Shown here: positions 14,882 to 18,736 of the stretch, in pieces
How the letters are laid out: each line of letters opens with the position of its first letter
Numbering within the stretch: position 1 is the first letter of the stretch
Assembly (NCBI RefSeq): GCF_009914755.1
Contig: NC_060925.1
DNA from: the human T2T-CHM13v2.0 reference genome, Homo sapiens
Length of the DNA: 64,000 nucleotides
Direction: 5' to 3' (one strand)
The notes under the pieces: model-generated
The model's database searches: none
Seen by the model: only the letters and a program-made list of their open reading frames with translations
What the model was told of the DNA's origin: nothing
Translations under genes and position numbers: made by a program

Positions 14882-14992
14882 ATGTCTCAGGAAGGTGCGG
14901 TCCCAGCTAGCGCGGTTCCCCTGGAAGAATTAAGTAGCTGGCCAGAGGAGCTATGCCGCCGGGAACTGCCGTCCGTCCTGCCCCGACTCCTC
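14882..14992 (+). CDS. FIRRM: FIRRM/C1orf112 exon 1 coding part (long, U12-spliced isoform): MSQEGAVPASAVPLEELSSWPEELCRRELPSVLPRLL
   Basis: ATG with A at -3, then 37 codons ending exactly at the U12 donor ATATCCTT (14993). In frame with all downstream exons. Confidence 0.85.
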
Positions 14993-16289
14993 ATATCCTT
15001 CCTTGGTTGTCACTTCTACCTAGAGAAGGGTGTGGGCGGGTCGCGAACCTTTCTCTTCTGTCCCTTCAGACCCACCGCCAGGCTGGGTTATATTACCGCG
15101 GCCTGAACCCCCTCTTTTCTTTGTCAGTGAGTGGGATGAAAAGTGAGGGACTGGAGGGGAAGCGACAACCGTGGTAGATTTAAGTAAGGCTTTGGCCCTG
15201 GAAAGGCTCGCGGACGTGTTCTGACCCAAGGTTTTAGCAGTGGATGTGGCGTTTTCTTCCATTCCTTCTTTCAGTTTTTCTGTACTCGTTGCTTGCAATT
15301 AAGTGTAAATACTTTTGCTAGTGGATAATGGGGGAGGCAAGGACTGAGACCTGCGGTATGACGATAGCTCTGGCTCTTAATAGTTTGAGGTAAAGCGAGA
15401 TACTCTGAGCTTTTGTCTCCCGTAAAAAGGGTGGTGAATATGAATAAGGGCTTTCTTAGCGTTATAAGAATTAAAGGGCATAGTTCTGTGGTGTGAAATC
15501 TTTAAAAGATGTTCAGTAAATAAAAATGATTTTCCTCCTTCCCCTCTCAGACCTCTTTTTCTTCTTTCTTTCTTTTTTTTTGACAAGTTCTCACTCCTCT
15601 CACCCAGGCTGGAGTCTTTCTGAAAGAGTTGCTTCCGCTTGTTGTTGGCTTTCAACTGTTGGATTTGAGGCGCTTAGCGCCTTCTTCGTCCGGGTGCAGC
15701 ACATTCTTGATTGGTCTCATGCCTTTGTGGTTGTAAATGTGCCTGGAATCCTAGCCTTTCATGGTAAACCATATGTATATGTATCTTTTTCACAACATTT
15801 GAGCCCAGCTTTATACAATTACACTCAAAAGAAAAAAAGTAACCTTCACTTGAGAGAATCTCAATACTGCACAAATATTGTGCAGCTAAAGCCCTATGTA
15901 ATCACATAGAAGTCATTCACCTAGGCATTAGCAAAATCTCAGAAGGTGCCAAAGCCCCCTTTTTTAGTTTTTGTGTAGATACAGAACTGCCGTCTTCAAG
16001 GAGTTTCAACTTGAAAACAAATAGCCACCCTCAAAACATTCAAAAACACTTAAACTGCGTGCATAATGTGTGTGAGACATGGTGTTAGGCTTTGGGAGAA
16101 CAGAGACACGGAACGTGATTCCTCTTCTTCCCCACAAGCTTATAGAGAGACTTCATTAAGTTGAAAGTCAACATTCCCACCTAGCTTTGCACTTCAAACG
16201 ACATATTCAAAAAAGCCCAAACTTCCTCTAGTTTTCTTCATCTGAGTAAATGGTTTCACAAACTGAAACCTTGAATCCTCTCTGTCTCA

Positions 16290-16940
16290 CACACCCGATC
16301 AGTAAGTTCTATTGTTTCTGATTCCAAACTATGTCTTGAATCAATCCGTTTATCTCCATCCTCATTGCTACCACTCTGATTCCAAACCCTTATCACCTCT
16401 CACTTGGAGTATTAATAGTTTCCTTGTTTCTACTCATAATTCATTATTCCAAAAAAGTTAAGAGGGGAAAAACATAGATCTCGTCATTTCCCTTTTTAAA
16501 CCACTTTACCTTCAAGGTTCCAGGTGATCTAAGCCTTGCCCTTCTCTCATACCTAGTTAATTAACTACACTCTGTTCATGAATACATTAGGCTCACCTAC
16601 CTCAAGATCTTTTTGCTCAGCCTGATTTGTTCTCTCAGCCTTTTGCATATTTCATGTTTATGTCTTGGCCCAAATGTCACTTCCTTAGAGGGGCTTTTTC
16701 AGAGCCTTCAATCTTAGGCAGTTCCCCCAAACGCAGTCTTACACTTGTATCACATTGGCCTGTTCAGTTTTCTAAAAAGCACATTACCATTAAAAGAAAT
16801 GCTCTTGTTTGCTTTGTATATTTTCCACTTCTACACATTATGTTGCAAAGTTCATAAAGGCAGGATGTTGATTTTCTTCACAGCGTTACCCTCAGCACCT
16901 AGAACAGTGCCTGACACATAGTAAGCATTCATTAAATGGC
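16290..16940 (+). mobile_element. L2 3' fragment
   Basis: Ends CAGCACCTAGAACAGTGCCTGACACATAGTAAGCATTCATTAAAT. Confidence 0.6.
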
Positions 16941-17324
16941 TAAAAATATTTCATGTTTTAAAAATACTTGGGAGTCTAATTAGACAATACTTTTTTTCAG
17001 CTTAATGGTAGTATTTTAGCTTCACTATTTTAACAAATGAAAAATTTGCAATAAATCTACAATGCCATTACCCCCCAAAATCTTTTTCATGTTTTGCATT
17101 TTACGTATTATTTTCCAGGCCTTACCTGCATGTCTGCATAATCATAACTGACTAATTTTGGAACAGCTGGTAATTATTTGAGCTTTACTGAAATTTTTTC
17201 ATGAGGCCAATTCTACCCTACTGAACTCAAATTTGAGTTAATGATGACCTCATTTTGATTGCTGCTGTAAAAAATAAGATTTCGGAAGAGGAATGAATTC
17301 TTGTATTACTGTGGTAGGACTATG

Positions 17325-17621
17325 GGTTTTTTTTTGTTTGTTTGTTTGTTTTGAGACGGAGTCTCACCCTGTCACCCAGGCTGGAGTGCAGTGGTGCGAT
17401 CTCAGCTCACAGCAGCCAGGTTCAAGTGATTCTCCTTCCTCAGCCTCCCGAGTAGCTGAGATTACAGGCACGTGCCACCATGCCCGGCTAATTTTTTGTA
17501 TCTTTAGTAGAGATGGTTTCACCATGTTGGCCAGGCTGGTCTCGAACTCCTGACCTCGTGATCCGCCTGCCTCAGCCTCCCAAAGTGCTGGGACTACAGG
17601 CGTGAGCCACCGTGCCCGGCC
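17325..17621 (-). mobile_element. AluS
   Basis: Antisense Alu with a small internal deletion. Confidence 0.9.
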
Positions 17622-17912
17622 GGGTTATTCATTTTTCTTATTAACATTCTTTGATGATTCTTACGGTGTTGTTACAGTAAAACATTTCTAACAATTATTC
17701 TAACAATTATTCTTGATGGTGTATATGAAGAATTTATTGTCGTGTATTTGTAAGCTGCTATGTGCAGAAGAATTTCAGTCAAATAAAGTTGGTAAGATAG
17801 GTATGTAAGTAATATGAAAAAAGATAGAAGGTGATGAGTGACAGGTATAAATTAAGTACAATAGAAATGTTGAGGAAAGAAAAATTTCTTGTAATAGAAA
17901 TCGGAAGTACAA

Positions 17913-18385
17913 ACTGGGCATGGTGGTGTGCATCTCTAATCCCAGCTCCTTGAGAGGCTGGTATGGGAGGATCACTTTAGCCCAGGAGCTTGAGGCTGCA
18001 GTGAGGTGTGATCATGTCACCGCACTCCATCCTGGGTGACAGCAAGACCGTCTCTCTTTTTTTTTTTTTTTGAGACGGAGTCTCGCCTATGCTGGAGTGC
18101 AATGGCGCGATCTTGGCTCACTGCAACCTCTGCCTCCCAGTTTCAAGTGATTCTCCTGCCTCAGCCTCCTGAGCAGCTGGGATTACAGGTGTGCGCCACC
18201 ATGCCCAGCTAATTATTTTGTATTTTAAGTAGAGACGGGTTCTCACCATACTGGCCAGGCTGATCTTCAACTCCTGACCTCTTGTTCGCCCATCTAGGTC
18301 TCCCAAAGTGCTGGGATTACAGGTGTGAGCCACCCCACCTGGCCCCGAGCGAGACCCTCTCTCTAAAAAAAAATAAATAAATAAA
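17913..18385. mobile_element. Plus-strand Alu right monomer (FRAM/AluJ) interrupted by a minus-strand AluS (18056..18344)
   Basis: AG(C/A)GAGACC-TCTCTCT-like duplication on both sides of the inner Alu; the A-rich tail of the outer element follows. Confidence 0.8.
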
Positions 18386-18696
18386 TCATAAACCTGTGGA
18401 TTATTGTAGCATTGTTTCTCATCTGTCAAAAATATTTCATGACTATGCATAGTTTGAAAAGGCAAGTTTGTCCCTGGGCAATTTTCAAAATATTTCTTTA
18501 ATGTGTTTTCACAATACTGTTTACCTAATAAATCTTAAGTTTTTAAAAGCAAAATTAAGCCAGTAATTTGAGTCCAATTCCAATCTCTTATGAGTCATTG
18601 CTTAAATTTCAAAAGGGTTTTATTTTTTTTTTAGGTTTGTTCTGAGTAATGAATACCCTATTACTATGACACTAGTATCTTCCTTAATTATCCTAC

Positions 18697-18736
18697 TCAT
18701 TGTCTCAACATTCTGAAAGTTGGATTGAGCATATTC
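18697..18736 (+). CDS. FIRRM: FIRRM exon 2 (40 nt, U12 acceptor): SLSQHSESWIEHI+C
   Basis: Follows the AC acceptor and ends at C|GTAAGT. Phase 1 joins AA of exon 3 (CAA=Q). Confidence 0.85.

What the first reader, a model, noticed from the sequence alone, without database searches (positions are those of the whole stretch)
14895..18736. U12/U2 twintron in FIRRM intron 1: spliceosome choice decides which start codon works
Seen: two complete, staggered splice-site pairs. The U12 pair is ATATCCTT (14993), branch TTCCTTAAT (18680) and AC (18696). The U2 pair is AAG|GTGCGG (14895, 98 nt upstream of the U12 donor) and T-tract-TAG (18634, 62 nt upstream of the U12 acceptor). The U12 branch point lies inside the U2-form exon, so the two routes are mutually exclusive. 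U12 splicing puts ATG 14882 in frame with the whole CDS (706 codons in this window). U2 splicing makes ATG TCT CAG GAA G|GT TTG TTC TGA (MSQEGLF*). Inference: minor-spliceosome activity could act as a switch on the level and form of FIRRM, the FIGNL1 partner that removes RAD51/DMC1, tying homologous-recombination control to U12 capacity. I recall C1orf112 appearing in a published list of vertebrate twintrons, so the structure may be known; its effect on the coding sequence is the part to pursue.
Basis: partly seen in the sequence, partly recalled or inferred. Interest (0 to 1): 0.88.

Follow-up and report, generated by a model that had tools for sequence, protein, structure and literature searches.

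The report
Known FIRRM U12/U2 twintron, start-codon switch
The first coding intron of the human DNA-repair gene FIRRM can be removed by either of the cell's two splicing machines, as is already published and annotated; the rare machine gives a protein 58 residues longer at its front, and the common one gives the standard 853-residue protein behind small decoy reading frames.

Summary
This includes ATG 14882, the U2 donor at 14894|14895, the U12 donor ATATCCTT at 14993, the U2 acceptor ending at 18634, the branch motif at 18680-18688 and AC at 18695-18696.

The motifs alone are not rare. A comparable composite occurs in 55 of 400 random 64-kb sequences. The feature is real because RefSeq annotates both routes, published junction-spanning primers match them, and a mouse protein fragment crosses the same exon junction.

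It is also already known. C1orf112 (FIRRM) is one of 18 human twintrons in Janice et al. 2013 and is named in a 2021 review.

The U2 route is not a dead end. It is the RefSeq Select route, usually with a cassette exon (15608-15763), and it encodes the canonical 853-aa protein from ATG 20686. In that route ATG 14882 only starts a 7- or 59-codon upstream ORF. The U12 route gives a 911-aa protein with a 58-residue N-terminal extension.

So the choice is between two proteoforms plus an upstream-ORF load, not between on and off. Any regulatory link to minor-spliceosome capacity is untested.

The parts
14819..14992 (+). First exon in its long (U12-donor) form. The transcription start at 14819 is shared with the short U2-donor form 14819-14894.
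   Evidence: RefSeq transcripts
14882..14884 (+). Upstream start codon (A at -3, T at +4). It heads the 911-aa ORF in the U12 form and a 7-, 59- or 63-codon upstream ORF in the U2 forms.
14880..14885 (+). Third, U2-type donor GTATGT (cut 14879|14880). The start codon lies inside it, so its use removes the ATG.
   Evidence: used by XM_054337567.1
14895..14900 (+). U2-type donor GTGCGG (cut 14894|14895), 13 nt into the upstream ORF.
   Evidence: used by 4 of 21 transcripts
14993..15000 (+). U12-type AT-AC donor ATATCCTT.
14993..18696 (+). U12-type AT-AC intron, 3704 nt, phase 0.
15608..15763 (+). U2-flanked cassette exon inside the U12 intron. It is part of the RefSeq Select transcript and is not in a masked repeat.
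17119..17169 (+). Second, rarer U2-flanked cassette exon inside the U12 intron.
18617..18634 (+). Pyrimidine tract and AG of the U2-type acceptor.
18635..18696 (+). 62-nt exon extension present only in U2 forms. It has four stops in the main frame and two further upstream ATGs (18649, 18666).
18680..18688 (+). U12 branch-site motif TTCCTTAAT. Its TAA (18685-18687) is an in-frame stop when the stretch is exonic.
18695..18696 (+). Terminal AC of the U12 intron.
18697..18736 (+). Core of exon 2 (40 nt). It is coding only in the U12 form.
20663..20751 (+). Exon 3. It contains ATG 20686, the start of the canonical 853-aa protein, which is Met59 of the 911-aa form.

Best explanation
FIRRM's first coding intron is a U12-type AT-AC intron (14993-18696, phase 0) that is overlapped by U2-type splice sites.

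The decision is made at the 5' splice site within exon 1.
- If the minor spliceosome pairs ATATCCTT (14993) with the branch site and AC at 18680-18696, ATG 14882 is joined in frame to the main ORF. Provided exon 3 is included, this gives a 911-aa protein, which is the 853-aa protein plus 58 N-terminal residues.
- If the major spliceosome uses GTGCGG (14895) or GTATGT (14880), the U12 donor is removed with the intron. The only usable acceptor is then the U2-type site at 18634, reached directly or through cassette exons.

The 62 extra exonic bases in the U2 forms carry four in-frame stops, one of them inside the U12 branch motif. ATG 14882 therefore becomes the start of a short upstream ORF, and the protein must begin at ATG 20686 (853 aa).

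Shown here: the sites, the annotation, the reading frames, and the shared ATG and junction in mouse.

Inferred:
- The long form is the ancestral one.
- The U2 mRNAs are translated less efficiently because of 3 to 7 upstream ATGs.
- The U12 to U2 ratio would fall if minor-spliceosome activity fell.
For: Sites.

Annotation, 21 FIRRM transcripts in all:
- 12 join 14992 to 18697.
- 8 use acceptor 18635, always from GT donors: 4691 once, 14684 twice, 15763 three times, 17169 once and 14894 once.
- 1 starts downstream.
- No transcript mixes the AT donor with the AG acceptor or the reverse.
- The CDS is 2736 nt (911 aa) in NM_001366769.1 and 2562 nt (853 aa) in the Select NM_001320047.2.

Frames and upstream ORFs.

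Transcripts exist for both routes. Stok et al. (bioRxiv 10.1101/2022.10.07.511242, passages) report expression in GTEx and validation by RT-qPCR in HeLa and RPE-1. Their forward primers match the 14894^15608, 15763^18635 and 14992^18697 junctions and no contiguous genomic sequence.

Conservation:
- Mouse UniRef fragment P0001 (58 aa) starts at the same ATG. It is 29/37 identical over exon 1 without gaps and 10/13 identical, by eye, over exon 2. The junction is at the same codon.
- Mouse Flip is reported as 24 exons and 903 aa (Zhang et al. 2023, PMC10484675, passages). That fits the 24-exon, 911-aa human form better than the 853-aa form.
- Janice et al. 2013 state that in all 18 twintrons the U12 intron is ancestral and conserved in vertebrates (their Table S1 was not seen).

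U12-type features match the description in Turunen et al. 2013 (PMC3584512, passages): a short branch-to-3'ss distance, no pyrimidine tract, and either A usable.
Against: - Human studies treat 853 aa as the major isoform, and the 853-aa cDNA rescues knockout cells (Tischler et al. 2024; Zhou et al. 2023). The extension is therefore dispensable for the functions tested.
- Stok et al. name one of the U12-junction transcripts as non-coding. They saw no protein from the shorter U12-junction isoform, with data not shown.
- Only 4 of the 12 U12-junction RefSeq transcripts carry the long-type CDS.
- P0001 does not prove a long mouse protein. Its last 7 residues do not follow the human long ORF. They resemble human exon 3 read one base out of frame, so in that mouse transcript the upstream ORF may end after 58 codons.
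- I could not fetch any full-length orthologue.
- No junction counts, ribosome-profiling data or peptide data were available.
- The motif composite is not statistically rare on its own.
Confidence: 0.7

Rival explanations
1. The twintron is a regulated switch. Minor-spliceosome capacity sets the amount and form of FIRRM, and through FIGNL1 it sets RAD51/DMC1 removal, so homologous-recombination control is tied to U12 activity.
For: - Both routes are expressed, and they differ in start codon and upstream-ORF load.
- Comparable competition modules do act as switches in SRSF10, NCBP2, prospero and CENATAC (review PMC8329584, section 7).
- The N-terminal part of FLIP is needed for FIGNL1 binding (Tischler et al. 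2024), so an N-terminal extension could matter.
Against: - No data on ratio changes were found.
- The 2021 review says that no clear regulatory role has been determined for C1orf112.
- The 853-aa form alone rescues knockout cells.
- Searches pairing FIRRM or BC055324 with U12 found nothing relevant.
- The U2 bypass would buffer FIRRM against minor-spliceosome loss rather than couple it to that loss.
Confidence: 0.15
2. The arrangement is an evolutionary intermediate or a tolerated bypass with no regulatory purpose. Cryptic U2 sites near an old U12 intron have taken over most of the splicing in humans. The start has moved to Met59, and the U12 form is a minor leftover.
For: - Janice et al. 2013 and the 2021 review both propose twintrons as intermediates of U12-to-U2 conversion.
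- Turunen et al. 2013 note that conversion can occur by activation of a cryptic U2 5'ss near the U12 5'ss.
- RefSeq Select and the human literature take the U2 form as the major one.
Against: - Janice et al. report that the twintrons are conserved in vertebrates, which argues against a transient state.
- 12 of 21 RefSeq transcripts still use the U12 junction.
- Stok et al. saw U12-junction transcripts expressed across GTEx tissues.
- The age of the U2 sites could not be tested here.
Confidence: 0.3
3. ATG 14882 heads a conserved upstream ORF rather than a true N-terminal extension. The U12-spliced mRNAs are mostly non-productive, and the 911-aa protein is an annotation possibility that is hardly ever made.
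For: - The mouse fragment P0001 ends after 58 residues with a tail out of frame relative to the human long ORF.
- 8 of the 12 U12-junction RefSeq transcripts have no CDS from ATG 14882.
- Stok et al. name one U12-junction transcript as non-coding.
- No solved structure contains the exon-1 peptide. The Protein Data Bank copy held no FIRRM match at all.
Against: - The frame is open for all 58 codons between ATG 14882 and Met59. My arithmetic puts the chance of that at about 0.06 for random codons.
- The mouse protein is reported as 903 aa.
- The exon-1 peptide is 78% identical between human and mouse with no gaps.
- A single-sequence model of P0001 is helical with mean pLDDT 77.5. This is weak evidence.
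Confidence: 0.2

Closest known systems
C1orf112 twintron as listed by Janice, Jakalski and Makalowski 2013 (Biol Direct 8:4)
   Same: It is the same gene and the same intron. [quoted passage not shown]
   Different: The paper gives only protein lengths: 718 aa for the U12 variant and 853 and 606 aa for the U2 variants. The 718-aa variant corresponds in length to a RefSeq transcript whose CDS starts far downstream, at 23942. The 911-aa N-terminally extended form and the conversion of the start codon into an upstream ORF are not stated in the text I read. Their supplements were not seen.
SRSF10 competing U12/U2 module (Meinke et al. 2020, as summarised in review PMC8329584)
   Same: It has an AT-AC U12-type intron with U2-type sites and a cassette exon inside it. 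The minor route gives the full-length product and the major route includes an extra exon.
   Different: In SRSF10 the major route ends in a truncated, polyadenylated mRNA and is autoregulated. In FIRRM the major route still encodes a functional protein from a downstream start. No regulator or feedback is known for FIRRM.
Drosophila prospero twintron
   Same: It is an AT-AC U12 intron with a U2 alternative, and the two routes give protein isoforms that differ by a short segment.
   Different: In prospero the U2 intron is nested and the difference is internal, in the homeodomain region. In FIRRM the sites are staggered at both ends and the difference lies in the start codon and the N-terminus.
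NCBP2 and CENATAC U12/U2 competition
   Same: The choice of spliceosome changes the protein product or its level.
   Different: In NCBP2 the U2 form loses much of the RRM. In CENATAC the minor route is the non-productive one and the 3'ss is shared. In FIRRM both routes are productive and both splice sites are separate.
Start-codon or upstream-ORF switching by alternative 5'-end splicing (general principle, recalled and not tested here)
   Same: Alternative splicing in the 5' region turns a coding start into the start of an upstream ORF.
   Different: Here the two alternatives are served by different spliceosomes.

Membership tests
U12-type (minor) intron, AT-AC subtype | Highly conserved 5' splice site of the form RTATCCTT at the first intron bases | tested here: met
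   ATATCCTT lies at 14993-15000, directly after annotated exon end 14992. The consensus wording is partly recalled. Turunen et al. 2013 describe the conserved 5'ss.
U12-type (minor) intron, AT-AC subtype | Conserved branch-point sequence (TCCTTAAC-like) close to the 3' splice site, with an optimum of 11-13 nt | tested here: met
   TTCCTTAAT lies at 18680-18688. The adenosines at 18686 and 18687 are 11 and 10 nt from the first exon base 18697. The last motif base is T rather than the recalled consensus C.
U12-type (minor) intron, AT-AC subtype | No polypyrimidine tract before the 3' splice site; AT-AC termini | tested here: met
   Only 8 nt separate the branch motif from the AC, and the termini are AT-AC. 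It is the only such intron among the 38 annotated in the window.
U12-type (minor) intron, AT-AC subtype | Base-pairing of the sites with U11 and U12 snRNAs better than background | tested here: inconclusive
   I computed duplex energies against the 5' ends of the genome's own U11 and U12 genes. The donor ranks 3879 of 7000 neighbouring 12-mers and the branch site ranks 420 of 7000 16-mers. This crude energy test does not discriminate.
U12-type (minor) intron, AT-AC subtype | Removal depends on U11, U12, U4atac and U6atac snRNPs | not testable with these tools
   No perturbation data were available. The searches found no main-text report for this gene.
U12/U2 twintron in the sense of Janice et al. 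2013 | [quoted passage not shown] | tested here: met
   U12 intron 14993-18696 overlaps U2 introns 14895-18634, 14895-15607, 14880-15607, 15764-18634, 15764-17118 and 17170-18634. The gene is listed in their Table 1.
U12/U2 twintron in the sense of Janice et al. 2013 | Both routes are used in real transcripts | tested here: met
   BestRefSeq transcripts exist for both routes. Published junction-spanning RT-qPCR primers match both routes. Quantities were not seen because they are in a supplementary figure.
Regulatory spliceosome-competition switch (SRSF10, NCBP2 or prospero type) | The isoform ratio responds to minor-spliceosome activity or to a defined regulator | not testable with these tools
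   No read data were available. The review states that no clear regulatory role has been determined.
Regulatory spliceosome-competition switch (SRSF10, NCBP2 or prospero type) | The two products differ in function | not tested
   Only the 853-aa form has been studied. The 58-residue extension has no Pfam match and no solved relative.
Regulatory spliceosome-competition switch (SRSF10, NCBP2 or prospero type) | Both sets of splice sites are conserved | tested here: inconclusive
   The U12 junction position is shared with mouse, and conservation in vertebrates is asserted (Table S1 closed). Conservation of the U2 sites could not be examined because no vertebrate genomes were on hand.

The most novel reading that the evidence does not exclude
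The conserved, ancestral FIRRM protein is the U12-dependent 911-aa form. On this reading the 853-aa protein used in all the human biochemistry I read is an N-terminally truncated proteoform, made from U2-spliced mRNAs in which the ancestral start codon has become an inhibitory upstream ORF. Minor-spliceosome activity would then set both which FIRRM proteoform a cell makes and how much. The 58-residue helical extension would modulate FIGNL1 binding or FIRRM stability.
Probability: 0.15. Interest if true: 0.6.

Novelty: already known. Interest (0 to 1): 0.3.

Why it matters
FIRRM (FLIP, C1orf112) partners FIGNL1 in removing RAD51 and DMC1. It is essential in mouse embryos and is a hit in crosslink-repair screens.

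If the 911-aa form is made in cells, then the human constructs and models described in the papers I read lack a conserved N-terminal segment. That segment lies next to the region needed for FIGNL1 binding.

If it is not made, the locus is still a clean natural example of one spliceosome choice turning a coding start into an upstream ORF.

In either case the architecture itself is published and annotated. What remains open is a quantitative and functional question, not a discovery of structure.

Tried and rejected
1. Motif statistics as proof. The motifs and their composite are not rarer than chance: 7 hits against 3.6 expected, 3 against 2.8, and 55 of 400 random sequences. I dropped this as an argument.

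2. Duplex energies of the sites with the genome's own U11 and U12 snRNA 5' ends. This did not discriminate, so I report it as inconclusive.

3. RNA structure around the competing donors, 14819-15040. The z-score is -0.55, with 57 of 200 shuffles folding at least as well. That gives no support for a structural switch.

4. A processed pseudogene as a fossil of the germline splice form. Each query found only its own locus.

5. Solved structures. Neither the exon-1 peptide (E up to 10) nor a DUF4487 exon (E up to 0.01) had a match, so the Protein Data Bank copy holds no FIRRM.

6. Pfam on 10 pieces. DUF4487 matched 4 of the 10, all from the exon at 27566 onward. None of the 6 N-terminal pieces matched, exon 1 and P0001 included. 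Pfam therefore says nothing about the extension.

7. Rfam on 12000-24000. There were no matches, so no known RNA gene lies in the intron.

8. Full-length orthologues. The word search takes only proteins of 0.55-1.75 times the query length, and a spliced protein may not be typed. I could therefore query only the 74-aa stop-free stretch from ATG 14882. It returned 1 named hit out of 1 scored candidate, and 10 unnamed candidates were left out by the tool.

9. The Atlas search, the second structure job and fold search were not used.

10. Literature.
- Searches found 2 papers each, the same two.
- One search was too loose (1,004 papers), but only 4 of the 40 listed papers held C1orf112. Three of them paired it with U12 terms. 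The fourth (PMC10413679) held no U12 term.
- One search found 3 papers. The one I opened matched only on a page number in its reference list. The other two, with one occurrence of each term, I judged unrelated from their titles and did not open.
- One search found 0 papers.
- In one search the one candidate opened held only a reference-list mention.
- The gene review by Edogbanya et al. 2021 (PMC8164572, passages) has no occurrence of 'isoform' or 'N-terminal'.
- So in the searched library I found no text on the start-codon effect.
- Supplements were closed. Those that could bear on this are Janice et al. Tables S1 (conservation) and S2 (expression), Stok et al. Suppl. Fig. 2 (transcript levels), and the intron tables of minor-spliceosome perturbation studies.

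
Full report
WHAT IS THERE

- ATG lies at 14882.
- A U2-type donor AAG|GTGCGG is cut between 14894 and 14895.
- A U12-type donor ATATCCTT starts at 14993, directly after the annotated exon end 14992.
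- A long T-tract and TAG end at 18634.
- The branch-site motif TTCCTTAAT lies at 18680-18688.
- AC lies at 18695-18696, and the exon starts at 18697.

The offsets of 98 nt and 62 nt are correct. The two adenosines of the branch motif are 10-11 nt from the first exon base, and no pyrimidine tract intervenes. This fits the description of U12-type introns in Turunen et al. 2013 (PMC3584512, passages), which gives an optimum distance of 11-13 nt, says either A can be used, and notes the lack of a polypyrimidine tract.

IS IT MORE THAN CHANCE?

Not on the motifs alone.
- ATATCCTT occurs 7 times in the window against 3.6 expected.
- TTCCTTAAY occurs 3 times against 2.8 expected.
- The ordered composite occurs in 55 of 400 random first-order Markov sequences of the same length.

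The feature is real for other reasons.
- The motifs sit exactly on RefSeq exon ends. Of 38 distinct annotated introns in the window, this is the only AT-AC intron, against 35 GT-AG and 2 GC-AG.
- The junction is phase 0, and it keeps a 58-codon stretch between ATG 14882 and the canonical start open. My arithmetic puts the chance of that at about 0.06 for random codons.
- Annotation never mixes the site types. All 12 transcripts with acceptor 18697 have donor 14992, and all 8 with acceptor 18635 have GT donors. One further transcript starts downstream, for 21 in all.

OUTSIDE TRANSCRIPT EVIDENCE

Stok et al. [quoted passage not shown]

I checked their forward primers against the window. None matches contiguous genomic sequence. 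They match the junctions 14894^15608, 15763^18635, 14684^18635 and 14992^18697. So both routes are used in real RNA. The relative amounts are in a supplementary figure that I could not see.

WHAT THE TWO ROUTES ENCODE

The U12 route.
- In NM_001366769.1 (24 exons) the CDS runs from ATG 14882 for 2736 nt, giving 911 aa.
- That is the canonical protein with 58 extra N-terminal residues: 37 from exon 1, 13 from exon 2, one codon split across the exon 2/3 junction, and 7 from the start of exon 3.

The U2 route.
- This is the RefSeq Select route. NM_001320047.2 joins 14894 to cassette exon 15608-15763 and then to 18635. Its CDS starts at ATG 20686 and is 2562 nt, giving 853 aa.
- Only one model transcript (XM_054337569.1) joins 14894 directly to 18635.
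- In the U2 mRNAs, ATG 14882 (A at -3) opens an upstream ORF. It is 7 codons long in the direct form, 59 in the Select form, and 63 when the second cassette exon is also included. Between 2 and 6 further upstream ATGs follow it.
- The 62 nt that are exonic only in U2 forms carry four stops in the main frame. One of them is the TAA inside the U12 branch motif. So no mRNA that uses acceptor 18635 can extend the main ORF upstream, whatever its first exon.

A third donor.
- GTATGT, cut between 14879 and 14880, contains the ATG itself and removes it when used.

Intron retention.
- Retention of the U12 intron gives a 74-codon ORF.

HOW THE CHOICE IS MADE (PARTLY INFERRED)

The commitment is at the 5' splice site in exon 1. 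Use of either GT donor removes the U12 donor.

The inner U2 introns (15764-18634 and its parts) lie wholly inside the U12 intron. They could be removed first without preventing U12 splicing. So the branch site lying in the U2-form exon is not the only basis for exclusivity, and probably not the main one.

On the scanning model, which is established knowledge and was not tested here, the U2 mRNAs should translate the main ORF only by leaky scanning or reinitiation.

I saw no special RNA structure around the donors (z = -0.55).

CONSERVATION

Vertebrate genomes were not available, and the protein word search cannot reach a 900-aa protein from an exon-sized query. The 74-aa stop-free stretch from ATG 14882 found one named hit, mouse UniRef fragment P0001, which is 58 aa long.

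What P0001 shows:
- It starts at the same ATG.
- It is 29/37 identical over exon 1 without gaps.
- It is 10/13 identical, by eye, over exon 2.
- It crosses the exon junction at the same codon.

Its limits:
- Its last 7 residues do not follow the human long ORF. They resemble human exon 3 read one base out of frame.
- So this fragment shows the shared start and junction but does not prove a long mouse protein.

Other evidence:
- Zhang et al. 2023 (PMC10484675, passages) give mouse Flip as 24 exons and 903 aa. That fits the long form.
- Janice et al. 2013 state that the U12 intron is ancestral and conserved in vertebrates for all 18 twintrons. Their Table S1 is closed.
- A single-sequence AlphaFold model of P0001 is three helices with mean pLDDT 77.5. 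This is weak evidence, and its last helix includes the out-of-frame tail.

WHAT IS ALREADY KNOWN

- C1orf112 is in Table 1 of Janice et al. 2013, with a U12 variant of 718 aa and U2 variants of 853 and 606 aa (I read parts 1 and 2 of 3 of the text).
- The 718-aa figure equals the CDS of NM_001320048.2, a U12-junction transcript that skips exon 3 and starts at 23942. So that paper did not describe the 911-aa form.
- Akinyi and Frilander 2021 (PMC8329584; section 7, part 1 of 2, and passages) name the gene. [quoted passage not shown]
- They class it as an outer U12 intron with an inner U2 intron. The annotation shows that, and in addition a U2 donor upstream of the U12 donor, so the arrangement is staggered at both ends.
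- An editorial repeats the list.
- Human FIRRM papers take the protein as 853 aa (Zhou et al. 2023; Tischler et al. 2024, 'major isoform'). The 853-aa cDNA rescues knockout cells.
- The gene review by Edogbanya et al. 2021 has no occurrence of 'isoform' or 'N-terminal'.
- My searches found no text on the start-codon or upstream-ORF consequence. RefSeq's CDS annotation nevertheless already embodies it.

VERDICT

The structure is already known and annotated. The proposed link between minor-spliceosome capacity and homologous recombination is an untested inference, and a U2 bypass would if anything buffer the gene against minor-spliceosome loss.

The open and modestly interesting questions are two. 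Is the conserved 58-residue extension made, and does it matter? How much do the upstream ORFs cost the Select mRNA?

Interest is 0.3.

Noticed in passing
window 14879-14885: A third U2-type donor (AAA|GTATGT) has the FIRRM upstream start codon inside its own intronic positions +3 to +5. The one transcript that uses it (XM_054337567.1, start 14769) therefore deletes the ATG altogether.
   Followed up: partly
window 18635-18696: The U2-only exon extension has four stops in the main frame. One of them is the TAA that is part of the U12 branch-site motif (18685-18687). The branch site thus doubles as a frame-closing stop codon whenever it is exonic.
   Followed up: yes
P0001 (mouse UniRef fragment, 58 aa) versus window 20664-20751: The last 7 residues of the mouse fragment resemble human exon 3 read one base out of frame. 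This suggests a mouse transcript in which the upstream ORF ends early, perhaps through a shifted acceptor. It could not be resolved without mouse DNA.
   Followed up: partly
window 14509-14686: An alternative FIRRM first exon (14509-14684, + strand) overlaps METTL18 exon 14594-14686 (- strand). The main FIRRM starts (14769, 14819) lie 83-133 bp from the METTL18 start, so this is a bidirectional promoter. An annotated enhancer spans 14419-14738.
   Followed up: no
window 45966-46801 and 52258-56674: Two annotated GC-AG introns in FIRRM. The first follows the alternative exon 45843-45965.
   Followed up: no
window 14990-15035: In both the minimum-energy and the centroid fold of 14819-15040, the U12 donor pairs with a purine-rich stretch about 25 nt downstream to form a local hairpin. 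The fold as a whole is no more stable than shuffles (z = -0.55).
   Followed up: partly
window 14882-15106: Retention of the U12 intron would give a 74-codon ORF ending at a stop inside the intron.
   Followed up: partly
window 56675-56860: There is a weak sub-threshold Pfam match to a ubiquitin-binding motif (UBM): E = 0.067 and 13.1 bits against a cut-off of 23.3. It lies inside a DUF4487 exon and is probably noise.
   Followed up: no
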